Source: the human T2T-CHM13v2.0 reference genome, Homo sapiens
Strand: one strand, 5' to 3'
Assembly (NCBI RefSeq): GCF_009914755.1
Contig: NC_060925.1
Length of the DNA stretch: 64,000 nucleotides
In this document: positions 44,696 through 63,138 of the stretch, in pieces
How positions within the stretch are numbered: position 1 is the first letter of the stretch
Layout of the letters: each line of letters starts with the position of its first letter
The notes under the pieces: model-generated
What the model saw: the letters and a program-made list of their open reading frames with translations, nothing else
Told to the model about the DNA's origin: nothing
The model's database searches: none
Made by a program: the position numbers and the translations under genes

Positions 44696-46039
44696 TGTTC
44701 CATTCTTTTCGAGCAAGCAGGAAGCCACGGGGCTACCTCAGTTGCTCTTAGCCAGTAGCTCTCTCCACAGGTAGGCCTTCATCGGAGGGGAAAAGCCACC
44801 TTAGGGTTCCAGAGCTCAAGGGCGAATGATGCTTTCCACCCACTAATTTAAATACGGAAGCATCAGATTGTCTGCTTCTCAAGGAAAAGAGCTGTTACCA
44901 TCTCTGTCTCTTCAATGGGACCCACTCCTGGGCCCCACAGCAGGGCAGGTGCTCAGATGAATGGTGGCCGCCTGCCTGTGTCAGAGGGTCGGCCTAGGCA
45001 GGTTCCCCAGTCCGCTGGCCCGGGACGTCCTCCTCTCTCCCGGCCGCTCACTGTTCAGGACAGCCCGGGCCCCCCCCTGGGGCCTTGCAGGAGAGCTTCT
45101 GTGATCCACTGGGTGGCTTTGAGGGTAGCTCCCAGGAAAGGCTGCCTCAGCCCCAGCGTGATGGGGACGGGTAGGGGCCGATGAGGCTTCCCAGAGCAGC
45201 GATGGCCTTAGGTATTGCCAGAAGGAAACCTACTTTTCCTCCAAGATCAGAGGGAAGGATGAGGTGGGGTGTTGGAGCATCACCATATATATACATCACA
45301 CACACAGGGAAACACTCCTACTTGGATGGAGGATCTTTGCTGTTCTGTTGAGGCCAGCCTGATCCTGGAGGCAGGGCAGGGCCTGGCTGTTGCCCAGGCT
45401 CCAAAGAGGCGCCAGGGCGTCCCTTAGTCCTTACACTTTCTCCAGAACCTGCGGGCAGCAGGAGGCCCTTGTCGGGACAGGCAAGGGGGGCGGTGGTGCG
45501 GAATTGTGGGCGTGGCAGTCGGAGGCGCCAAGCCCGGGGAGGCGGGGCTTCCTGGGAGCATGCGTAGTGCCGGCTCTGCCTGGGCGGGGTCCTAGGCTGC
45601 TGCTCCCGCCTCCCCCGGCACAGGTAGGGCGCCCCGCAGACCCGGACAACGCTGGGTGTGGCTGAAAACAGGGAGTCATGGTGCGTTCTGGGGAAGGGTC
45701 AGGGCTGGGGGCTCGGGCCCCTGGACCAAAGACTCTAGCCAAATCCATCGGAGGCTGAGCAGGGCGATGGGGCAGGGCCGGGGGAGCCGTGGGGAAATGG
45801 GAGGGTGTGGGCCGAGCAGCGCCGGAGGCAGGTACCGACCATCGCCGGGTTTCCCAGAGGGCAGTGGTACCTGTGCCCACATGTGCGGCCTTTTTTGTAA
45901 AGGAACCTATCCCAACCCGAAGGCCCAAACGTGTGGCCGTGTAAGTTTAGTTGTGCCCGGAGTCCCAGGAGAGCCCGGACTGAGGGCAGCCAGAGGCCGG
46001 TGTCCGCAGAACGGCCCACGAGGCCTTCGGCTCAGTAGC

Positions 46040-46252
46040 CTGGAGTTTGAAATGCACCTTGAGCTTTAATGGCCTTTTCCTTGTGAGAATTCGAGTTAAC
46101 GTGCCTGCTGGTGCTTTTGATGGGTGAGGACGGTGAGGCAGGCCACACATCTCGCTTCTTTCCAGAACACTTCTGGGTAGTCGTTCAATTCCACATTTAA
46201 TCCAAAGCCAACAGTTCCATGGGTGACTGTGCTGCTGGCTGTAGGAAGCCGA
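46040..46252 (-). other. AKT3: Probable non-coding terminal exon of the AKT3 short-C-terminus isoform (3' end approximate)
   Basis: Minus-strand acceptor atcctcatctgtccacAG|TCGGC (plus ct 46253-54; second candidate AG at 46239-40); ATTAAA on minus at 46070-46065; distance from the 57540 donor (~11.3 kb) agrees with my recollection of the variant-2 structure. Confidence 0.65.
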
Positions 46253-46942: not shown

Positions 46943-49929
46943 GTACTGTGCAGAACGCGGCGCAGGTGGGAGTCCTTGGGCGGGCGTCTACAGGTGGATC
47001 TTTTATGCACCTCAACAGGCCGGCTTTCTCACGGATCACATCGGTTAGCAGTAAGCTGGGAGGGAGGTCCCGAAGACTGTGCTGGGCACAGTGCAGGACC
47101 CAGAGAAGCGGAGCCATGGGCCCGTCCTGGTGAGGGAGTTAAAGTCCGTGCAGGTGAACAGACCCCGGCCCGCGAATCAACGAACCACACCGAGTGCCAA
47201 GTTGCGCCGTGCAGGCTGCGGAGGGTGCGAGAGCAGGGAGAAGCGGGAGGACGGCCGTGGGCGGCAGAACAGGCTTTTTGGAGGATGGTGGCCTTGAGCT
47301 GCCTCTGAAGGTCGTGTATGGTTTGAATTGGTTGAGGAAAGAGGTGTTCCCAATTAGCAAAGTCGTCTTGAATGGAAGGCAGGCATCTCATCCTAAATTA
47401 GCTGACTGATTACTGGGCTAATATCTGGAGTGCTTGCAGAGCACCCGGCAGTGTTACACACAGAACATGCATTAATTCCCTTTACCCTTGAACAAGCAGG
47501 CGATGCTGACTTTATTGTCTTCATGGTTTAGATAGGGAAACTAAGGCCCAGACAAGCATTACAGCTGGCAAGTAGGGACACCGCAAACGGAGGCTAAGCC
47601 TGACTCCACAGCCCAGGCTTTCCCCATTCAGGTTAGATCCGGGGCCACCAGCAGGGAAAAGGGAGGAAGGAAAGTGTCCCGGTGAATTTGGAACACAGTA
47701 TGAAACCTCGTTTGCTAAATCGCTTCTCTTCCTGTCAGAGAGGCTGTGCATTTTGCCCCGTCAAGCAGTTTGTTAGGATAATGAGGTGGTCCGTGGGCTG
47801 ACCAAGGCCTCCGCCTTTAATTAGGATTGCACCCAGGTGCTCTGTGAGTGCCCTGGGGACTTCAGGCAGTAAGTGCTTGGAATGATTAATATGAAAAATG
47901 CATCTGGAAATGAAAACGAAGAGGAGTCTCATTCTCCTCACAAAATGACCCTGTGCTCAAGGAACCTGTAAGTACTGACTTTTCCCACTCGGTCCAAAAT
48001 CCCTCTGCCAAACATGTGTTCACAGACAGTAAATGAGCACACCCAGGCGCCACGGAGCTAAGGCCTGGAGGTGGAAATGCCTCTACTGTCCCCATGCTTC
48101 TGAGACTGCTCCCAGGGACTGTGGGGGAGCGGGCCGCTCAAAGTCCGAGCCACAGCCGCACTGCCACAGCTAATCTAGGAGGCGAGGCCTCACCTGGCAC
48201 GCTCCATGGCAGGGCCCTGGAACCTGAATTTTGCCAAGCTGTTGGGATGATTCTGGACGACACTACATTTTGAAAACCTCTGAAGTGTTTGGAGCTGGAA
48301 AGAACAGAGAATTATTCCAGGTTGTGTCACTGTGCTGAATCCCCTGCCCCCGCTTCGGACAAGTAACTTAAGCCTTTTTCCAGCCTCAGTTTCTCCTCTG
48401 CACAGTGGGCATGGTGCACGCCTGGCTTCACGGGCTACTGGGAGTGCTGAGTGCAGGCGGGATGCCCCACGGGCCCTTGGGCACACAGGCTGAGGACGTG
48501 TGAGGGTGTTTCCTTTCTCCCTCATCTTCAGAGGGTCCTGGGAGAGGTTCAGGGAAGGCAGAGGCCTGCAGAGCAGCAGCTGTGGGACCAGTGCCACTCC
48601 CCTCCCCTCTGCTTTCAGGATGACCCCCTCATCCTCCACCAGACCCAGCCCAGAACCCAGCCCTGTGGGCAGGTCCCCAGGGAGGGCCCCAGCAGCACCT
48701 GCTTTAGGCCTGGCCAGCCAAAGATCAGGACCACTGGAGCCACTAGGTCTCCTGGCAGGTGACTAGGCTCTTGTCACATAGGAGGGAGGGACCGTGACTC
48801 CTGGCATGAGTGAATCTTCAGCCTCTAAAGCCAAGAACTCTGTCAGACCTCAGGTTGTGGGGAGTCTTCCGTGGAAGCTGGAGCACACGGCAGCTTCCTT
48901 TGGGCTCTGGACTAGATCAGGAGAACGTGGGCTTTGCCTTTTAACTCCCCATCTGCCTGCTTTACAGCACACTTAGATCTTAACATGGATCACCGATGCT
49001 TAGAAGCTTCTTCCAGGGCTTTAAAAATCTGGCTATTGCCAAATGAGTTGCAAAATTTTCACAAAACGCATTAAAAAAACCCCAAACCTCAAAAAATCCT
49101 CAGAAAAACTAGCAGGTCTTTCTTTCTTCTTTTGCCTGAAGCAACAGCAATGATTTGCCCATTCCTGTGCTATCTGATACTGGCCCATCTGGCTCATCTC
49201 TAAAGCGGCCTTTCAGATTCAAATATTACACTTGGAGTTATTTTAATATGAACATGACAAAAGAAATTTGGTAGAGGGAATGTTGGCTTTCAGTTGCAAA
49301 TACTAGTGGTCAGAGAGGAGGCAGGGATCCAGGTTTGCAAGCTCTCTGCTGAATATCTAAACCCAGAGCCTGCTTTTTCTGGCTAAGCCTGGCCTTCACC
49401 TCTAGGTAGGGGCTGTCAGTGGGCTTCAGCCTCTGCGATGCCTTCTTGTCATGGAATCAGCTTGAGTTGTGAGTTAGGCTTCTGCTGAGCCATGATGTGG
49501 GCGAGGCTGCTGTAGGTTCGAGCAGGTATTTTGGATGCGGTGCCGCCTGAGGGCTCCGGAGTGCTCAGCCACCCTCTCTGTTTTCCTGGAGTGGCCTGTG
49601 GGTCCAGATCTTGGGCAGCTGAGGGTTAGAGCTGTCCTCATGTCCGGGTTAGAGATGGTTTAACTAAAGGCTTCCGTTTTCTCAGCCTGGATGAGTTAAG
49701 CTTAACTTAATTTTGCATGTCAAACTCTAAACATCTCTGTCCACTTAATACCCAGAAGAGAATGGGTCGGGCAATGGTTCCAAAGCAAAGTCCACCCCTT
49801 TCCTTCCCTCCCTGTCCTGGGTCCTGAGCCCCGCTGCCCCTGGTGGTGGGGCTCAGGCTGGCCTGTGGCCTCCAACAGGAAGTGTCTAGCCTGTTGGCAG
49901 GCTTCATTATTCTAATTGTTTCTGCTTGA

Positions 49930-53700: not shown

Positions 53701-55556
53701 GCATGGGAGAGTCTGGACTTTGAGGTCAAACTGCCTGGATTCGAATCTCAGCTCTGCGTTGCTTCAGAGACATGTGTTAGCTTTCATGTCACTTGATTTC
53801 TGGCAGAGAAAAAGAAAGAACCAGCTTCCCTTTAAAAGGAAGTGCCTCATATTACCCAGAGCCCAGCACAGATGATTATGAAACCAACAGGATTAGTGCT
53901 GAGATCATTGTGGGCTTGAAAGGGCCATTTGAGATAAATAACCATTTTGTACAGATAGAAAAATAAGGCCCAGAGAAATGAAGTGAATGGAATTGGGAAG
54001 TGGCTGGGCAGGGAAATGAACTTCTTCTCAGGCCACAGGATGTGTGGATGGGGGCAGGTACCCGAGCGGGTGCGGGCGGAGCCGGGCCTGGCTGGAACAG
54101 CTGCCGAGCCCTGGCCCCGGTGCCCAGAACACGAGGCGGAGGCGGGAGGCGAGCCACCAAGCGAGGCAGGGGCTGCCCTGGAGCTCTGTCAACTCAGGGC
54201 CAGCTTTGAAATGCCCCAGATGGAGGTAGGGGGAGGGGCCTGCCCTCTCCAGTTACAAATGGATGCTTTATTGCCAGACACACAAGGAACAGGACCACGT
54301 TTTGACTTGGCCAAACAGAGACAGCGTGCCAGTGAGCAGAGCGGACAGCAGGGGGGGAAGGGGTTGTTACCTTCAGAAGGGTTGGCTAGAGCCACCCACG
54401 GAGACAGTGAAGTGCGAAGCCCGGGCAGGTCTCCTGTGAGCAGGGGCGAGGGGTGCCACCATCTCCCCGGGCTGCCACTTCTGGCTGGTTTGGGAACAAA
54501 GCAGCAGCAAAGGCTGGCTGGACCCCACAGTGTGGTTGCCTGGGGAACAGTTCAGGTCACCCAGAGCAACTGATTTCTTACACTCAGAACTTAACAAACT
54601 TTAGAAATAAATGAGGCAGGGTTTGTGGAGAGATGACTCCGATAGGATTTAAAATGAGAACAAAGAAAATGGGTTAGCAGCTGTGTGCCTGCAGATGGGG
54701 GCACGTTTCCACCACCTGTGGACAGCACGGCAGGGGAGCAGTGGCCAGGGCGCCCTGTCGCCCCCCTCTGAGCTGCAGGACAGCCACAGGAGGGCCACAG
54801 CAAGGGCCATGATGACAAATGGAAGGGCAGAAGGACGGGAGACACTGGCTGAGGGCTCATGTCCCACTGGCATACGCACGCTCTACTCTCCTGGACGAGA
54901 CCATGATCACTGTGGTGTTGATGACAGGACTTCCTGGAAATAAGCATCGTGGATATCCCTAATGGCAGACAAGCCAGATGTGGGCAGTAACTAAGGCTTC
55001 TGTCTCGGTCAGAGAAATGTGTGTTACCAAAGAGTCAGCAAATGGAGGCGACAAAACGGTGACCTCCTAGGACAAATTATCCAGCCCTCCAGTGCTGACT
55101 GAACGCTCACCATGGGTCAGGCACGGCTGTAGGCACGGGTGGGGGGGGGGGGCGTTGAGCAGTGAACGGTAAGTTCAACAGTGTGAAAGTGGGGATGGAT
55201 ATGGGGCTTCTCACCTGAACCGCAGGAAATACAAAGCCCATAGAGATGGCCATGGCTGATCTGCCGCAGGAAGGAATCAGGCTGACTTTTGATTGGTTCC
55301 TGGTGAGGCCCGTACATCTGTGTCACCCCCATGCAGGCCCACGGAATCAGGAGGTCACCCGTTTCTGGAACAGCTCCGATAGTGATAAATTGCTAGGTGG
55401 CCTGGGAGCCCACAGGCATTATGTAGACTCATCATGAGAAATGCCTGTTTCCTGGAGCTTATCAAAAAATTCCGCAACACATTTTACTTTTACTTCAGGT
55501 CTTTACGCCTATTCTGTATTGTGTGTACGTGGGTGTGTTCTCTACCCAAAATTCAT

Positions 55557-55776
55557 CACTGCAGCCTTGAATTCTGGGCTACAGCAATTCTCCTACATCA
55601 GCCTTTTGAGTCGCTGGGACTACAGGGGTGCGCCACCACACATGGCTAATTTTTACAATTTTTTTTGTAGAGATGAGGTCTCACTATGTTGCCCAGGCTG
55701 GTCTCGAACTCCTGGACTCAAGCGATCCTATTGCCCCAGCCTCCCAAAGCACTGGGATTACAGGTGTGAGCCACTG
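55557..55776 (-). mobile_element. AluJ-like, partial
   Basis: cactgcagccttgaattctgggct...ggactcaagcgatcc...gtgagccactg. Confidence 0.88.
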
Positions 55777-57542
55777 TTGGGTTGTTTTTCTTTTGAAGTG
55801 TTATCTGTTGGGATTTATGCTTATCCCTTTTGTATTCAGTCATCCTAGCATTTCTAAAGTTAGGAAGCCACTGTGTCAAGAGCGAGGCCACCAGGCCACC
55901 TGCCTTATGTGGCCAATCCATGGAGCAGGGGTGGAGGGCCATTCAAACCAGTCATTTAGCAGGACTGTGCTGGGTCAGTTCGATCACCTGGCCTGGAGGG
56001 CACGTCAGCTTGGTGCAAACCCTGCGTTTGACAATCAGATCGTGTTGGTGGCAGTCTCCGTGCTGTCAGTATCCCACTGAGGACAGAAGGGAGTCCCCTC
56101 TGCAATGGCAGGGCTCTAGGGCATAGTGCATGGGGTGGACTCCTCATGGGCCACTCAGACAGGGCCTGGAGAACAAAGCATCCCGTGGGCCCAGGAAATT
56201 GTCCACCTGGCTCCACGGGCCTGGGAGGGCTGTGTGCATGGGATGGCAGGTTTACGAGGAGGAGTGAGGCCTCCTGCCGGAGCCCCACCTGCATTCAGCC
56301 TGAGGCCAGGCCCCCCACCTACTCTAACTACCCTGCTGAGACCACCCCACTACTCACAGACCTGTTCAAGAAAAAGTTGTCCTCAGGGTCTCTCACACAC
56401 TGGGAAATCTACTTGAAATGTAAACATTACTTTTTCTCATTTTTCATAAAAGGCAACAGGCTGATGTTCATATATTTCTCTTGAATGCGGATTCAGTTTC
56501 ACTCATTGCCCTGTCTTGGAAATCCCCATGTTAATGATGGCTTAAATTAGGTTGATAGAGTCCTCCCTTGGAGTCCAGCTTGGAAAATCCTCACTGGAGA
56601 GGGGCAGGCCCACTTCTCTTTTTGGAAGATGGTTCCTAACTAAAGAAAGAGGGACCAGATTGGGCCCCTGGCCCTGCAGTGCGTCCCAATTTATCTGACG
56701 TAGAAACCGGGATTTGGAAAATACCATCCTGGCTTTTCTCTGGACTTCACAATCTAGAGGGCGAGGACTGTGGCCCAGTCACCTTCCCACACAGTGCACA
56801 GTAGAAACTCCAGACATGCTTTGTGGAGTGGAAACATTTCCAGTGGCTTCTGACTCTAGTTCCTGATGTGGTTTAAACTAATTTGGGCAGCCATGGCAGC
56901 AGAGGCCAGGAACAGTATTCAATACTTTCTGAACTTGTGATTCTCCCCCAACCTGATCTGCATGAAGCTACTTTGGAACATTTGTATCTGCGTAAAACTA
57001 AGAGACCTCAGTACACCCAATCCCCTCTTCCAACACATGTGAGGTTTCCATGTGAAAGTACTTTTTCATAGGTTACAATAAATTGCTTGCAGTTACAAAT
57101 TTGGAGGTGTTTCAGCTTGTATTGTTTCACGAGGAATTTCTTAGGGGCACTTGGCCTACACCCTGTTTTTGTTCTAGAATTACCTGCCGTTAAGGTCAGA
57201 TAAATTTTCAGTAAACAGATTATGGCACAAATCAATGTGTCCTTTCCCGGACAGAAGAGATGGCTCTCTGGCCATGTCCTAACACCAGACTGTCCTTATT
57301 TAAGAGGCAGGCGTGTCTTTTGTCTAGGTTGTCTTCAAATTTAACCCATTAAACCAGTTAACCTTATTTCATATGTGAAGGGCTTTGATGTGGACAAGAT
57401 GAGGCACAAACTTTTCATATAATTTCCACATTTTTAGCAACAGGTTTTTTTCTCCAACAACAGTTTTCATCATAAAAGGTGACTAAACCAGCAAATGAGA
57501 AGACAAATAACATTGAAGAACATGAGCTATTGAAACTTACTT

Positions 57543-57548
57543 TTTATT
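57543..57548 (-). terminator. AKT3: AKT3 distal poly(A) signal AATAAA
   Basis: Plus-strand TTTATT at 57543-48, overlapping the TAA stop of the alternative exon. Confidence 0.8.
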
Positions 57549-57590
57549 ATTTTTTCCAGTTACCCAGCATGCCACAATCTGATTGCTGAC
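57547..57590 (-). CDS. AKT3: AKT3 alternative C-terminal exon (PKB-gamma1 / isoform 2), coding part: (C)QQSDCGMLGNWKK*; exon 57590-57541
   Basis: Minus-strand acceptor tcatttatttcactctgttccatccAG| (plus ct 57591-92); same phase as the canonical exon (2 nt first); peptide recognised as the C-terminus of the AKT3 variant lacking Ser472; donor AAA|GTAAGT at 57540-57535. Confidence 0.92.
57560..57589 (+). CDS. SDCCAG8: SDCCAG8 last coding exon, coding part: LPSMPQSDC*
   Basis: Acceptor ctttttattattttttccAG| at 57558-59; TTA CCC AGC ATG CCA CAA TCT GAT TGC TGA; matches the recalled SDCCAG8 C-terminus. Confidence 0.95.
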   Translation, partial: LPSMPQSDC

Positions 57591-57900
57591 CTGGATGGAA
57601 CAGAGTGAAATAAATGATTTACAAAGAGATATTTACATTCATCTGGTTTAGACTTAATATGCCACAACGCACCACGACCTTCCCAGGGTGACACCGCCTC
57701 AGCCTGCAGTGGGGCTGGTCCTCATCAACGCGGGCGCTGTCCCCGCACGCAGTCGGGCTGGAGCTGGAGTCTGACTCTAGCTGAGCAGAGCTCCTGGTGT
57801 ATGTTTTCAGAAATGGCTTGAAGTTATGTGTTTAAATCTGCTCATTCGTATGCTAGGTTATACATATGATTTTCAATAAATGAACTTTTTAAAGACTTGA
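57590..57900 (+). other. SDCCAG8: SDCCAG8 3'UTR (end approximate)
   Basis: Follows TGA 57587-89; AATAAA at 57875-57880 followed by GU/U-rich sequence (gttgtaatgtttccttttt) at ~57901-57919. Confidence 0.85.
57875..57880 (+). terminator. SDCCAG8: SDCCAG8 main poly(A) signal AATAAA (proximal candidate also at 57609-57614)
   Basis: Canonical hexamer with a downstream GU/U-rich element about 20-40 nt later. Confidence 0.8.
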
Positions 57901-60900
57901 GTTGTAATGTTTCCTTTTTATCTTGTAGTGATGAACAAAACACACCAAAAAGGCACATATTTTAACTAGGCCAAAGTATATTAAGGACCAAACTTTTTTT
58001 CCTGCCATTCATTTTTCTTTTCATGATCTATATATCAATCATCCTTCACCTTTAATCAATGTCCCATCAGACTCCATTTTATTTATTTATCGTCCTACTT
58101 TGTGCACAATCAATCAATCAGGAGACACCAGGAAGCACTATGCATTACTCTTTCCATTCTGTTAAACAACGAAAACAGACAAAAAAGCATCTTTGGCTCG
58201 GTGGTGTCAGATTTTTTTCTTCAATACGCAGTATTTGAGAGGAGCCTAAAAACGTACTTAGTGAAATTAGAAAATTTACTTAGAGTATATCAAATATCTG
58301 TACACAGATAATTATTTGTCTAAAATAGTATTTCTACTATACACAATTAAGCCCTCAAATGCTTTAAAGTAATAAAAACGGACACTGGACATACCGTGTT
58401 GTATCTGAGAATGACAAACACTAAAGGCAAGGCTGCAGTTAGTTAGGACAGGTCCCTGACCTTCGGCTGCCCTGCCTGGCCAGCGAGCCATCATCCTCAT
58501 CACCATCTCAACACAGAGCTGATGTCACCATATGCTCAGCCTTGCCTCTCAGAAGTGATGTGGATTAGGCTTTGGAGGCGGTGGCATGATCTACACACAG
58601 AGACCATTTGAATCTCTTGAGCATGTAAAAGGTTCAAGCCTGAAACAGTAGAACTTCTATTCAGATTCAGAAGTTTTTTATTTCATCAAATGTGCTAGAC
58701 ATAAAGGCTGTCACATAAGATATTTTAATTGTCCTTAATTCTGTTTTAGATATACTGTGAATAAATTATACAATATTCTAAAAATAGCACCTTTAAAGAA
58801 TTATAGAGGTCACTTTTTTTTAGCCTCCTGGATCTGTCAACCCCAGTGGTTTTGAGAGAAGAGCACATGTGAGAATGCCCTCAAATTTGGCCGTGTGACA
58901 TACACATACATGCTTGACTCACTCTGGTCCCAAAAGCCATTCCTCTGTCTGGCTTCGTCACAGGAGCAAAGCCAAGTTTCTACAATAGTAGCTTTATGAG
59001 GTAAAATCAGAAAAAGGCCCCATCCAGAATGATTCAACGTGAAGTCAGACTGCAGTCCAGCCATCCTACCCATCTACATCACCCACGTCTAAGTTTGTTA
59101 ATTTGCCATGACATGTTGTTAGAAATACACTCTAAGAAAGGAAATATGCAGAGCAGTACATTATCAGGAAGACGTTAATGAAAAGCTACATTCCTTCAGA
59201 TTCTGGGTCCAAACCGTGTGTTGTATAGATGATTCGGGTCTGAATGTCCCCAGGGTCTGAGACCTCCTTCATCCCTGGCTTCACAGTACATCCATCCTAA
59301 ATCCAGTGCTGAGAGGTCAGCGTTTCCCCTCAGAAGCAGCCGTTCATCAAAGTTTGCACAACCGCACTACTGCCATTTCACTGAAGTAAAAATGATCCCC
59401 TATGTGTGTGTGTGTGAGCTACAAGGAATTATTTCTATATTTTCCTGTCACATTTTATACAAGGTAGGTTAATACCAGCTGGGGCTATTAAAAATCATGT
59501 TTTCATTAAAGAAGATTTAATTTGGGGGGATTATAGAACCACATCCAACAACAATAAACAGAGAAGTAGCAGATTGACATAGTGCTTTATTTAAGCTGTC
59601 TGTACGAAGGAAAATCATGTTCATCCCTATCATATACGTGTAAAAATACTAAGGATGTACAGTGTACAAAAACAGTTTCTCCTAGTTATTCCACATCCTT
59701 GTGGGTCATATACTTCAGGAAATAGACAGGTTTAGTATGACCAACAGTAATAGTAATACAGTTTCTTGGGTTTATAGTTGCATCTGCTTAAAATCCTTAA
59801 CCAGATGACTAGATCTTGCGCAGATCTAATGAAAGAACTAGCAAGGTCAAGAAATGTCACAAACTATAAAGCTACAGGGAGGTAATTCAATTACCAATTT
59901 AGAGGTTTTCTTTTTATTTAAATAAATACTTTACATTTCATGCTTGCCTGTAATGCACTACCAGGAGCAAGATAAGGAAATTCTACTGTAGACAGTACAA
60001 ACAGTAGCAGCAAAGTGTGTATGTTGAGGTGTAATAGAGAGACCCTGCAGTTAGTAAGGAAGGCCCTTACTTTTGTACTCTAGGAGAAGCAAGTGGCCCC
60101 TGCAAGAACAGTCAGCTTTAAGAAGCTGGAAATCAGGGATGGGAAATGGAAAACAATACTTGAATAATGCTATGTAATTAGTGTAGAAAGCAAAGCTGAG
60201 CGCGACCCTGCCAACCATCTAAGCAGAAATGGCCAATTTCCTCCAAGATGGCTGCATTATGACAAGAAGTCAAGCTTCATGACAGTTAGTATGGGCTGGA
60301 GTCTGCAAAGTCTGAACTGTATTCTCATAGAATGATTCCAGGTTTCAGGGTGTTCCACCTGCCAGAACCCAAAACTACAACTATGGGCGACACAAGGGAA
60401 GTTTTAGAAATCTCCCTCTACACGCATTTCTGGTTTTCTATTATTCCTCCATGGCAGCTGACAGATCTGGAAGTGAAAATAGGGGATTCTCAAAATCAAA
60501 GCCAAGAAGACACCTTGTGTGACACCAATGGAGTCTCAGAGGGTGGAATAGAAGTGACTGAGCCCCAGGCATGGCTGGGAACTGAGAGCCAGTGTGAGGA
60601 GTGGCCCGCCTGGGGCAATGTCAGTGCCAGTCATTAATCTTTAAGAAGTGTCCTTGGCCAAGGTCATGGGAATCACTTTAAGATTTGCGGGAGAAAAAAC
60701 CAAAACAACAAAAAGCTGTGTGCTTAGTGTTCGGTGTCATGCTTTCCCTCTAGAGGAGTAAGTGCTCTGAACATCAGCCAGTCTCAGCTTTCTGCTCTTC
60801 CTCTCACCTGTTTCTTTCTTATATAATGGATGCAAGACAACTTAAAGAACATACCTTCTAGTCTACTTTTTTGTCAAAATGAAACATTCAACATAATTCC

Positions 60901-63052
60901 AAGTGAAAAAAAAAAGATTAGCTATGTGTGTAAGTAAGAATGAACTACCATTTACTGTAACTTCCTACTCAATACTAAGGATGAACTTCACTCAGGTAGA
61001 AATATGAAAAAGAAGGATAACGTTGATGTCTGAATATGTCTTAGCTGCCTTAGTAAAATGCCCTTTAACCCCCGTCAGTCCCAGTGGCCCACCCACTGCC
61101 AGCAGTGGTTTCATAGCTATAAATCCACACTTCCAGCGTCAAGAGGCTAAGACATCTGCATATGAATATGATTCATCCTACTTAGAAAGTCACTTGCTCT
61201 TTCATACAATGCAATCATAATACTACGTCATGCTGTAGTCTTCCGTTTGGGAGCTGTCAGAGTTTAACTAAAATACATTTCCATGATCACTCCGCGGAGT
61301 AGGATGGCCTTCTGCTTGCCGCAAGAGTGGCCCCCAGCCCCTAGGACTTCACAGGCTGCTTTGGAAATTGTCAGCTCCTAGCACCAAAGGGTTTAATCTG
61401 AAGATCATCATTAATGAAGGAGAAAGATGAGGTTTGCATACATGCCCCCTTTCAGTGAGAAATGTTGGAATCTGGGGGACATGAGTATATACAGAAAAAG
61501 AAAAGCTGGAGGTGTTCTCTTTTTTTGTTGTTTTTTCCCTGATGGCTTAATTCAGTGATAAATGTACCATGATCCCAAGAAACACACCAGGTTCTTAGCC
61601 TTCACTGCCCATTTCCTAAATACTCAAGATGTGTTCATTTTGCCACGTAAAGATCATTTCTTATCTTCACTCAGGTCTCAATTTTCTTCATTACTTTTTG
61701 TTGCCAGGTCATCATAACGTTTCAAATTCTTAAATGAGCAAACGTCAACAGCTATTTGTTTCATTAACCCCTTGGCATGCATAGTTGGGGATTTTCTCAT
61801 TTTCAGTACCAAGGGGTTAAATGGCAGCATCTCTTCTCCCAAAGCCAAATTCTAACCAATATATTCCATTTCAGAGCCTTATCATTTTTTTTAACAGAGG
61901 AGAAAAAGTGCATGATTCTCATCAGCGTGTACAATCCTTGCACATGGGTCAAAAGTAACTGCAGTAAGTCTATTTTATATAAGTTGGAGCTGCGTTTGCT
62001 AACATGACATACAATTCTCATCACTAAAAAATAAATACTACTGCAATATAAACAAAATCATAAAAGGACATTCAAAGTTTCAACATCTGAGAAAAAGCTA
62101 ATTCACGTAGAACTGAAAGTAAAAAATTAAATAAGGCAAACACCTGTTTACCTTGGTGTAGAAATTTTGGTGAAAAGCAGTATCATTATACCTGTCTACA
62201 TTCTTCAGCCATCAGAGGTGATAAATGTCAAGAAGGAAAAAAGGTTTCCAAGCACAGGGGAAAGATGCTCTCTGGCTCAAATTGTTTCATAAGACCCTTT
62301 AAGTGACCTTGACTGTGCATATGCCTTCAGTTCTTGGTAGAACAGTGTTCACTTGCTCATGATTGCCCGTGAAGTCTCGACATCCACATGTGATATGGGC
62401 TTCTTCTACAGTATCCACCAGGAATTTAAAAAAAAAAAATTATATATATATATATATATCCCAACAGTTGTTCAGTCCTTCTACCAAATGCTTCCTAATC
62501 AATTCCAGCCACAGCTTAGTGATATATGCCTACTTCACGCACGGATCTGATGTGCTTTACATATGCACGCCACCACCCTTCCACAATTGCTTGTTCTGAA
62601 TTTATAAACTAAATCTTCTTAGTCTAGTTAGTTTTTCTCTTCTAGAAAGTTAAAAAATGTACCTAGAATCAGTGTATCTCATTTAGCCTTCACTGAGGGA
62701 AAAACTAAAAGATCAAAAGATGATAATTGGTGCACAAATGAACAATGGTGGGCTCATGACTTCCAAAGGTTGGAAAATTACTTCTTAAAGTTGCTATAAT
62801 AGTAAGACAGTAGCAGCAACAGCATGAGACCTTAGACTGAGATACAATTTCATGCAAAAACAAAAACTGGAGTGTATTTGCGTGTATGTGTGTTTTCATG
62901 AGGGTGAAAGGTGGCGAGGGGTGAGGACCCTTGGCTGGTCTGGGATGTCGGAAGGTGCCCCTGCTATGTGTAAGAGCTAGGACTGGTGATGTCCAGGAAT
63001 CATTTTCAGTAATAAATTGAAGATGACAGTGAAGTAGCAGAATGAAAGAGAC

Positions 63053-63138
63053 TTATTCTCGTCCACTTGCAGAGTAGGAAAATTGAGGGAAATGCGGCCG
63101 CCTCTCATTGTCCATGCAGTCCATACCATCCTCATCAT
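63053..63138 (-). CDS. AKT3: AKT3 (PKB-gamma) canonical last coding exon: (Y)[27 protein letters not shown]
   Basis: Minus-strand acceptor tttcctgcccacAG| (plus ct 63139-40); 2 nt plus 28 codons to TAA (63055-53); AGC-kinase hydrophobic motif FPQFSY with the Ser472 codon at 63077-79. Confidence 0.98.

What the first reader, a model, noticed from the sequence alone, without database searches (positions are those of the whole stretch)
57547..57590. Bidirectionally coding micro-exon: the SDCCAG8 and AKT3 isoform-2 C-termini are read from opposite strands of the same 30 bp, and both contain QSDC
Seen: the whole coding part of the SDCCAG8 last exon (57560-57589, LPSMPQSDC*) lies inside the antisense AKT3 alternative coding exon (57590-57547, CQQSDCGMLGNWKK*). 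An interrupted palindrome CAATC-T-GATTG (57575-57585) reads CAA TCT GAT TGC on plus and CAA TCA GAT TGT on minus, so both proteins contain Q-S-D-C. Known: this AKT3 variant lacks the Ser472 hydrophobic motif, and the genes are annotated as overlapping. Inference: one exon probably arose by antisense exonization of the other, a single variant here can change both proteins, and the shared QSDC may be chance or a shared motif.
Basis: partly seen in the sequence, partly recalled or inferred. Interest (0 to 1): 0.85.

Follow-up and report, generated by a model that had tools for sequence, protein, structure and literature searches.

The report
AKT3 and SDCCAG8 two-strand coding tail
Two neighbouring human genes that face each other end in the same 30 bases, read on opposite strands as short protein tails; this is real and already annotated, and the shared four-residue string QSDC is most likely a chance by-product of a small DNA palindrome.

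Summary
The + strand 57560-57589 reads LPSMPQSDC*. The - strand reads (C)QQSDCGMLGNWKK*. CAATC-T-GATTG at 57575-57585 is an interrupted palindrome with arms of exactly 5 bases. The two frames lie third codon position on third position, so any such palindrome gives the same peptide on both strands. QSDC therefore follows from the geometry.

Chance rates are about 0.7-0.8% for a 30-base overlap in this phase, about 3% for chr1 and roughly 30% genome-wide (my extrapolation).

The AKT3 "micro-exon" is the last 63 bases of AKT3's own 5.6-kb terminal exon, entered through an internal acceptor. It is coding in 2 of 12 AKT3 mRNAs and 3'UTR in 7. All 6 of 6 SDCCAG8 mRNAs read it as coding. Both tails are no longer than a random frame gives (median 14 codons).

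The Ser472-less isoform is published (reviews). The closest analogue is the TRalpha2/Rev-erbalpha bidirectional coding sequence. Age and conservation could not be tested because no vertebrate sequences were on hand. No sign of a shared motif was found. Low novelty.

The parts
57560..57589 (+). SDCCAG8 terminal coding stretch, LPSMPQSDC plus stop TGA (57587-57589). Used by all 6 of 6 RefSeq SDCCAG8 mRNAs.
57547..57590 (-). AKT3 isoform-2 terminal coding stretch, (C)QQSDCGMLGNWKK plus stop TAA (57549-57547). Coding in NM_181690.2 and NM_001206729.2, 2 of 12 AKT3 mRNAs.
57575..57585 (.). Interrupted palindrome CAATC-T-GATTG. The centre, 57580, is codon position 3 in both frames. This is the source of QSDC on both strands.
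57591..57610 (-). AKT3 internal alternative 3' splice site: AG at 57592-57591, preceded by a tract with 15 of 18 pyrimidines. It lies just past the SDCCAG8 stop codon on the other strand.
57543..57548 (-). AKT3 poly(A) signal AATAAA, overlapping the isoform-2 stop codon. It lies 15 nt before the mRNA end at 57528, which is shared by the main mRNA and NM_001206729.2.
   Evidence: read from the sequence
57535..57540 (-). 5' splice site GTAAGT after exon end 57541 (AAA|GTAAGT). NM_181690.2 uses it to splice to exon 46252-46035. On the + strand the same bases read ACTTAC, a branch-site-like sequence 20 nt before the SDCCAG8 acceptor (inference; the branch point is not mapped).
57541..57559 (+). 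SDCCAG8 last-intron polypyrimidine tract (16 of 18 pyrimidines at -20 to -3) and acceptor AG (57558-57559). Its complement supplies the AKT3 residues KK, the stop codon and the poly(A) signal.
57560..57895 (+). SDCCAG8 last exon, with poly(A) signal AATAAA at 57875-57880 and mRNA end at 57895.
57528..63138 (-). Main AKT3 terminal exon: coding part 63053-63138 with FPQFSY, and 3'UTR 57528-63052 (5,525 nt). It is antisense to the whole SDCCAG8 last exon; the two mRNAs overlap over 57528-57895, 368 nt.
46035..46252 (-). 3'UTR-only last exon of NM_181690.2: acceptor AG at 46254-46253, ATTAAA near 46070, lying inside an SDCCAG8 intron.

Best explanation
SDCCAG8 (+) and AKT3 (-) are convergent genes whose last exons overlap. 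The main AKT3 mRNA runs as 3'UTR across the whole SDCCAG8 last exon and ends 32 nt beyond its acceptor.

A minority AKT3 splice form skips the normal last-exon acceptor (63138) and uses an acceptor 5,548 nt further on (57590), inside that same exon. This drops the C-terminal hydrophobic motif with Ser472. The ribosome then reads 14 residues of former 3'UTR until the first in-frame stop, which sits in the poly(A) signal. Those 14 codons happen to lie antisense to the 9 constitutive last codons of SDCCAG8.

The functional content of the AKT3 variant is the loss of the motif (inferred) and of 5.5 kb of 3'UTR (shown from the coordinates), not the new tail (inferred). QSDC on both strands is a geometric consequence of a chance 5+1+5 palindrome centred on a base that is the third codon position in both frames.
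For: Anatomy:
- Transcript structures and coding parts come, and the frames.
- The main exon encodes FPQFSY and the alternative tail does not.
- 2 of 12 AKT3 mRNAs read the stretch as coding and 7 of 12 as 3'UTR, while 6 of 6 SDCCAG8 mRNAs read it as coding.
- The 3'UTR is 19 nt (NM_001206729.2) or 224 nt (NM_181690.2), against 5,525 nt in the main form (coordinates).
- In NM_181690.2 the stop lies 6 nt before the last exon junction. By the usual 50-55 nt rule (established knowledge) that mRNA would escape nonsense-mediated decay.

The tails look unselected:
- The median number of codons before the first stop in random frames of this window is 14. The tails are 14 and 9 residues.
- The stretch lies in no masked repeat of 100 bases or more.
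- It is single copy in the genome.

The palindrome:
- Codon positions pair 3 with 3, and 1 with 2.
- The per-centre rate of identical tetrapeptides is 7.7e-4.
- The per-overlap rate is 0.74-0.82%.
- Another chr1 overlap in the same phase, NTRK1/INSRR at 82 nt, shares TVK.
- There is no stable hairpin and no Rfam match at the site.

Literature, passages seen:
- The Ser472-less AKT3 variant is cited as cloned in 2001 and as pro-apoptotic in 2018 (PMC4858973; PMC6873690; PMC10670075).
- PMC8306188 states that all three AKT genes make variants lacking the hydrophobic motif. Such variants therefore do not need an antisense partner.
Against: - No cross-species sequence could be examined, so conservation of the palindrome, the acceptor or either tail is unknown.
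- A per-locus chance of about 0.8% is low. Calling it unremarkable rests on my extrapolation from chr1 to the whole genome.
- I saw no direct evidence (junction reads, ribosome footprints, peptides) that the AKT3 frame is translated in cells. The two primary papers were not held.
- The unusually dense packing of signals from both genes in 57528-57592 could reflect selection for coupling rather than accident.
Confidence: 0.72

Rival explanations
1. Regulatory coupling: the shared 65 bases link the two genes, as at TRalpha2/Rev-erbalpha. Transcription or RNA of one gene would mask or compete for the other's signals. The AKT3 acceptor, poly(A) signal and 5' splice site lie against the SDCCAG8 branch site, polypyrimidine tract, acceptor and stop. 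The share of Ser472-less AKT3, or AKT3 3'-end formation, would then depend on SDCCAG8 expression, and the reverse. This is compatible with the anatomy in the best explanation but adds a function.
For: Signals of both genes occupy the same bases. The two mRNAs are complementary over 368 nt. The analogous TRalpha2/Rev-erbalpha overlap is reported to affect mRNA expression and splicing (PMC4569393: abstract, introduction and passages). [quoted passage not shown]
Against: Nothing here tests coupling. PMC5414975 (passage) reports no change in brain SDCCAG8 expression in Akt3-mutant mice. On chr1, mRNA ends are not enriched just beyond antisense acceptors: 2 of 244 pairs within 1 kb fall in the -50 to 0 bin, much as in the neighbouring upstream bins. 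The arrangement is therefore not a general device.
Confidence: 0.12
2. QSDC, or the palindrome, is selected: either as a short motif useful in both proteins, or as a symmetric DNA/RNA element (a protein-binding site or a splicing enhancer read on both strands).
For: The per-locus chance of a shared string of 4 or more residues is only 0.74-0.82%. The palindrome sits in the middle of the shared coding stretch.
Against: The identity follows automatically from the palindrome and the phase. The arms stop at 5 bases, and the fourth residue matches only through synonymous TGC/TGT. QSDC is C-terminal in one protein and internal in the other. Hairpin folding is no better than shuffles. 93 such palindromes occur in this window alone. 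About 0.03 such coincidences are expected on chr1 and about 0.3-0.4 genome-wide (my estimate).
Confidence: 0.04
3. The AKT3 frame is annotation only: the 57590 acceptor is used at noise level and the tail is not made as protein in normal tissue. In that case the stretch is coding on one strand in practice.
For: Only 2 of 12 RefSeq AKT3 mRNAs use it, and the MANE form does not. The tail has the length of a random frame. Neither tail peptide was found in the full text of the paper library (0 papers). The 19-nt 3'UTR is odd, and a strong 5' splice site sits between the poly(A) signal and the cleavage site.
Against: Both transcripts are curated NM_ records. The acceptor has a good pyrimidine tract, 15 of 18, better than the 12 of 18 of the normal last-exon acceptor. 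Reviews report that knock-down of the Ser472-less form changes tumour growth (passages in PMC6873690, PMC10670075 and PMC8306188). Peptide lists usually sit in supplements, which were closed.
Confidence: 0.12

Closest known systems
TRalpha2 (THRA) / Rev-erbalpha (NR1D1) bidirectional coding sequence
   Same: Both are convergent protein-coding genes. In both, an alternatively spliced last exon of one gene gives a variant lacking a key C-terminal function: hormone binding there, the Ser472 hydrophobic motif here. In both, that exon overlaps the last coding exon of the other gene on the opposite strand, and the choice lies between the main 3' end and a distal acceptor (PMC4569393: abstract, introduction and passages).
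   Different: There the shared coding part is 67 codons, it encodes a substantial domain-replacing tail, and it has been studied across mammals together with mapped splicing elements. Here it is 9-10 codons. The AKT3 acceptor lies inside AKT3's own main terminal exon, and both mRNA forms can share one poly(A) site. No regulation by the overlap has been shown.
Convergent (tail-to-tail) sense-antisense gene pairs in general
   Same: The last exons overlap on opposite strands. This is a common class: convergent pairs are given as about 20% of human sense-antisense pairs in PMC3783845 (passage).
   Different: Most such overlaps are UTR on UTR. Coding-on-coding overlap is rare. On chr1 I found 14 gene pairs, 7 of them with 24 nt or more.
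Other chr1 antisense coding overlaps of similar size (PPIE/BMP8B 31 nt, SPATA1/CTBS 29 nt, DRC8/LOC124900416 25 nt, HCRTR1/PEF1 24 nt, NTRK1/INSRR 82 nt, CCDC24/SLC6A9 114 nt)
   Same: These are short stretches annotated as coding on both strands. 8 of the 14 pairs share the third-on-third codon phase.
   Different: None of the 8 other overlaps I fetched shares 4 residues; the longest shared string is TVK in NTRK1/INSRR. I did not examine their transcript structures.
AKT splice variants lacking the hydrophobic motif
   Same: The AKT3 variant here is the published Ser472-less form. A review states that all three AKT genes make such variants (PMC8306188, passage).
   Different: Only the AKT3 variant's tail is read from a neighbour's coding exon. 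I did not check the AKT1 and AKT2 loci.

Membership tests
Convergent sense-antisense protein-coding gene pair with exon overlap | Two genes on opposite strands whose mature transcripts share exonic bases at their 3' ends | tested here: met
   SDCCAG8 last exon 57560-57895 (+) lies inside AKT3 terminal exon 57528-63138 (-), giving a 368-nt overlap.
Bidirectional coding sequence (TRalpha2/Rev-erbalpha type) | The same bases lie in an open, annotated reading frame on both strands | tested here: met
   57560-57589 is coding in both genes.
Bidirectional coding sequence (TRalpha2/Rev-erbalpha type) | Both frames are translated in cells | not testable with these tools
   No reads, footprints or spectra were available. 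Reviews cite functional work on the AKT3 variant, but the primary papers were not held. Neither peptide was found in paper texts.
Bidirectional coding sequence (TRalpha2/Rev-erbalpha type) | The overlap and its splice signals are conserved in other mammals | not testable with these tools
   No vertebrate genomes were on hand. The protein word search with the SDCCAG8 exon-17 peptide was blank because of the length filter.
Bidirectional coding sequence (TRalpha2/Rev-erbalpha type) | Antisense transcription influences the splice or poly(A) choice | not tested
   This needs experiments. Only the overlap of signals is shown.
AKT variants lacking the hydrophobic motif | The C-terminal F-x-x-F-S/T-Y motif is absent while the kinase core is kept | tested here: met
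   The main exon encodes FPQFSY. The alternative tail CQQSDCGMLGNWKK has no such motif. The upstream coding exons are identical in the annotation.
Shared functional peptide motif (QSDC) | The occurrence is beyond chance and the motif sits in a comparable context in both proteins | tested here: not met
   The chance rate is 0.74-0.82% per overlap, but a coincidence of this kind is expected to order of magnitude genome-wide. The motif is C-terminal in SDCCAG8 and internal in AKT3. The identity is forced by the palindrome and the phase.
Exon born from a transposable element | The exon lies in a repeat copy | tested here: not met
   The nearest masked repeat of 100 bases or more is at 55586-55800. 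The 201 bases round the exon are single copy in the genome.
Structured RNA element at the palindrome | A fold more stable than shuffled sequence, or a match to a known RNA family | tested here: not met
   z-scores are -0.80, -1.30, +0.67 and -1.11. No Rfam match lies at the site. The only match in 56500-58500 is at 56755-56902 with E 0.44, below the gathering score.

The most novel reading that the evidence does not exclude
The 65 bases 57528-57592 act as a two-way switch. Every signal needed for the Ser472-less AKT3 mRNAs (acceptor, stop, poly(A) signal, 5' splice site) is the complement of a signal needed to finish SDCCAG8 (stop, acceptor, pyrimidine tract, probable branch site). On this reading, transcription or RNA pairing from one gene tunes the isoform choice or 3'-end formation of the other, as proposed for TRalpha2/Rev-erbalpha. 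It would link a growth kinase's regulation, including escape from its 5.5-kb 3'UTR, to a ciliary gene at a locus tied to brain size and psychiatric risk.
Probability: 0.1. Interest if true: 0.6.

Novelty: already known. Interest (0 to 1): 0.2.

Why it matters
In practice, variant interpretation in 57547-57592 has to consider both genes and their splice and poly(A) signals. 67 of the 90 possible single-base changes in the shared 30 bases alter both proteins. Changes in 57535-57559 touch the AKT3 stop, poly(A) signal and donor, and also the SDCCAG8 acceptor region.

Conceptually it is a small, clean example of how a short two-strand coding stretch can arise without selection on either peptide. 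Two short read-through tails of convergent genes meet, and a chance palindrome in the third-on-third phase yields the same peptide on both strands.

If the overlap did couple the two genes, it would be a second case of the TRalpha2/Rev-erbalpha kind. Nothing here shows that.

Tried and rejected
1. Cross-species conservation could not be assessed. The genome tools hold only this human assembly plus bacteria and archaea. The protein word search with the 42-residue SDCCAG8 exon-17 peptide (given by reference) found no candidate. Full-length SDCCAG8 (713 aa) lies outside the length filter, so that blank says nothing.

2. Primary papers were not held: Suyama 2018 (PMC7501878), Brodbeck 2001 (DOI) and Salato 2010 (PMC2893273). 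I know them only from reference lists and review passages.

3. I looked for earlier descriptions of the two-strand coding overlap. Searches (AKT3 and SDCCAG8 with overlap, antisense, convergent, UTR and last-exon terms) listed no paper on it. The passages read in PMC6395382 and PMC5414975 treat the genes only as neighbours. Peptide strings returned 0 papers. Transcript accessions brought only array and primer listings. A search for the rat cDNA history gave nothing useful. My recollection that the first rat cDNA also lacked the C-terminal serine is untested recall. Supplements were closed and may hold peptide or overlap lists.

4. I tested whether the complement of a polypyrimidine tract serves as a poly(A) signal as a general rule. 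On chr1 only 2 of 244 curated end-acceptor pairs within 1 kb fall 0-50 nt beyond an antisense acceptor, with no peak. Rejected as a general principle.

5. The hairpin reading of the palindrome was rejected. An RNA family was rejected. A larger inverted or direct repeat round the site was rejected: none includes 57575-57585. Repeat or duplicate origin was rejected.

The same count was redone with a sorted sweep.

Full report
**What is there**

The + strand 57560-57589 reads LPSMPQSDC and a stop. These are the last nine codons of SDCCAG8, in phase 0, and all 6 of 6 RefSeq SDCCAG8 mRNAs use them.

The - strand 57588-57547 reads QQSDCGMLGNWKK and a stop. The codon before it is split. The upstream AKT3 exon, fetched as L001, ends in T, and 57590-57589 add GT, giving Cys. 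With the normal last exon the same T joins AT to give Tyr, followed by [27 protein letters not shown]. That stretch carries the hydrophobic motif with Ser472. The coding lengths fit: 465 aa against 479 aa.

The palindrome CAATC-T-GATTG at 57575-57585 has arms of exactly five bases.

**Why both strands say QSDC**

Base 57580, the centre of the palindrome, is codon position 3 in both frames. Positions 1 and 2 of one frame face positions 2 and 1 of the other. In this phase any odd-spaced palindrome centred on a third position is read as the same codons on both strands. The fourth residue matches because TGC and TGT both encode Cys, although the palindrome has already ended. The shared tetrapeptide is therefore one fact, the palindrome, and not two.

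**How likely by chance**

- The window holds 93 centres with arms of 5 bases or more round one base, and 49 centres that give an identical stop-free tetrapeptide on both strands, or 7.7e-4 per centre.
- A shared string of 4 or more residues arose in 0.74% of 200,000 shuffles of the 30 bases. It arose in 525 of 63,970 (0.82%) 30-base stretches of the window read in this phase. For 3 or more residues the rates were 5.5% and 4.7%.
- On chr1 the annotation holds 14 gene pairs whose coding parts overlap on opposite strands, 7 of them over 24 nt or more. 8 of the 14 are in the same third-on-third phase.
- Of the 8 other overlaps I fetched, none shares four residues. NTRK1/INSRR, at 82 nt and in the same phase, shares TVK.
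- From the per-centre rate and about 42 eligible centres on chr1, I estimate 0.03 such coincidences for chr1 and about 0.3-0.4 genome-wide. This is inference and rests on extrapolation from one chromosome.

The match is a mild curiosity found after the fact. It is not evidence of a motif. QSDC is also the free C-terminus in SDCCAG8 but internal in AKT3. The palindrome gives no fold better than shuffles, with z from +0.67 to -1.30. There is no Rfam match at the site, and the palindrome is not part of a larger repeat.

**What the AKT3 'micro-exon' is**

The main AKT3 mRNA (NM_005465.7) has a terminal exon 63138-57528 on the - strand. Its coding part is 63138-63053 and the 3'UTR is 5,525 nt. That 3'UTR runs antisense across the whole SDCCAG8 last exon (57560-57895) and ends 32 nt beyond its acceptor, so the two mRNAs overlap by 368 nt.

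Two curated mRNAs instead join the upstream exon to an acceptor at 57590, inside that same exon.

- **NM_001206729.2** ends at the same poly(A) site, 57528, which leaves a 3'UTR of 19 nt.
- **NM_181690.2** splices again from 57541 to a UTR-only exon at 46252-46035.

The stretch was therefore already AKT3 exon. What is alternative is an internal 3' splice site. That acceptor has 15 of 18 pyrimidines upstream, against 12 of 18 for the normal one. In all, 2 of 12 AKT3 mRNAs read the stretch as coding, 7 of 12 read it as UTR, and 3 end elsewhere.

**A crowded 65 bases**

The signals below were read.

| Strand | Signal | Position |
|---|---|---|
| - (AKT3) | acceptor AG | 57592-57591 |
| - (AKT3) | stop TAA | 57549-57547 |
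| - (AKT3) | poly(A) signal AATAAA, overlapping the stop | 57548-57543 |
| - (AKT3) | 5' splice site AAA\|GTAAGT | intron bases 57540-57535 |
| - (AKT3) | cleavage site | 57528 |
| + (SDCCAG8) | ACTTAC, branch-site-like, its A 20 nt before the acceptor (inference) | 57535-57540 |
| + (SDCCAG8) | pyrimidine tract | 57541-57557 |
| + (SDCCAG8) | acceptor AG | 57558-57559 |
| + (SDCCAG8) | stop TGA, one base from the AKT3 exon start | 57587-57589 |

The AKT3 residues KK, the stop and the poly(A) signal are simply the complement of the SDCCAG8 pyrimidine tract. I asked whether this is a general device. On chr1, mRNA ends are not enriched just beyond antisense acceptors: 2 of 244 curated pairs within 1 kb fall in the -50 to 0 bin, AUNIP/MTFR1L and this one. 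So it is a local accident or a local adaptation, not a rule.

**Are the tails selected?**

In random frames of this window the median run before a stop is 14 codons. 52% of frames run 14 or more and 65% run 9 or more. Tails of 14 and 9 residues are what unselected read-through gives. The stretch is in no masked repeat of 100 bases or more and is single copy in the genome, so it is not a transposon-born exon.

A review states that all three AKT genes make variants without the hydrophobic motif (PMC8306188, passage). This fits the view that the loss of the motif is the point of the variant and the tail is incidental.

**What is known**

The Ser472-less AKT3 variant is cited as cloned in 2001 (reference list of PMC4858973). 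It is cited as pro-apoptotic and tumour-suppressing in 2018 (passages in PMC6873690, PMC10670075 and PMC8306188). I could not read either primary paper.

A long-read study of developing cortex reports further AKT3 isoforms with alternative last exons (bioRxiv 10.1101/2023.03.25.534016, passages). The overlap of the two genes' coding parts is in the public annotation given with the finding.

My searches listed no paper that discusses the coding overlap, and neither tail peptide occurs in the searchable texts. Supplements were closed.

The closest described system is the TRalpha2/Rev-erbalpha bidirectional coding sequence. It spans 67 shared codons, involves an alternative last exon that removes a key C-terminal function, and comes with evidence that the overlap affects processing (PMC4569393: abstract, introduction and passages).

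**Consequences that follow from the sequence**

- Of the 90 possible single-base changes in 57560-57589, 67 alter both proteins (53 missense in both, the rest involving a stop). 11 are silent in both, and 12 alter only one.
- The isoform-2 mRNAs lose nearly all of the 5.5-kb AKT3 3'UTR.
- In NM_181690.2 the stop lies 6 nt before the last junction. By the usual rule (established knowledge) that mRNA should escape nonsense-mediated decay.

**What could not be done**

No vertebrate sequence was on hand. Which use is older, and whether the palindrome is conserved, remain open. The protein word search was blank because of its length filter. The asymmetry of use, constitutive in SDCCAG8 and minor in AKT3, suggests by inference only that the AKT3 coding use is the later one.

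**Verdict**

It is an already annotated, small member of a known kind: the convergent-gene bidirectional coding sequence. The QSDC identity is best explained by a chance palindrome in the third-on-third phase. A regulatory coupling of the two genes through the shared signals is not excluded, at about 10%, and would be the only reading of real interest.

Noticed in passing
window 57528-57549, - strand: A near-consensus 5' splice site (AAA|GTAAGT, 57543-57535) lies between the AKT3 poly(A) signal (57548-57543) and the cleavage site (57528) used by the main AKT3 mRNA. By established knowledge, a 5' splice site close to a poly(A) signal can damp 3'-end formation, so it might modulate AKT3 mRNA ends. 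This was not tested.
   Followed up: partly
window 57528-57546, - strand: NM_001206729.2 has a 3'UTR of only 19 nt, against 5,525 nt in the main mRNA. The Ser472-less mRNAs would therefore escape nearly all regulation through the AKT3 3'UTR (coordinates).
   Followed up: no
chr1 annotation: 8 of the 14 antisense coding-on-coding overlaps on chr1 are in the third-on-third codon phase, more than the one third expected if phases were even. Several are only 2-11 nt long, where overlapping stop codons may force the phase.
   Followed up: partly
L006 (chr1:155978931-155979012): NTRK1 and INSRR are annotated as coding on opposite strands over 82 nt. The INSRR frame there contains the kinase motif HRDLAARN, and the two frames share TVK.
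   Followed up: no
chr1:242956944-242956945, outside the window: The Gnomon model XM_054333685.1 of AKT3 contains a 2-nt coding exon. It looks like a modelling device rather than a real exon.
   Followed up: no
chr1:25669339-25669354: AUNIP/MTFR1L is the only other curated chr1 case in which an mRNA ends within 50 nt beyond an antisense acceptor, here at 15 nt.
   Followed up: no
window 56755-56902, + strand: A weak Rfam match to TCL6_3 (18.7 bits against a gathering score of 40, E 0.44). It is most likely chance.
   Followed up: no
window 47641-48688 and 53956-54607: Annotated hESC enhancers lie in the SDCCAG8 last intron, between the two AKT3 isoform-2 3' exons.
   Followed up: no
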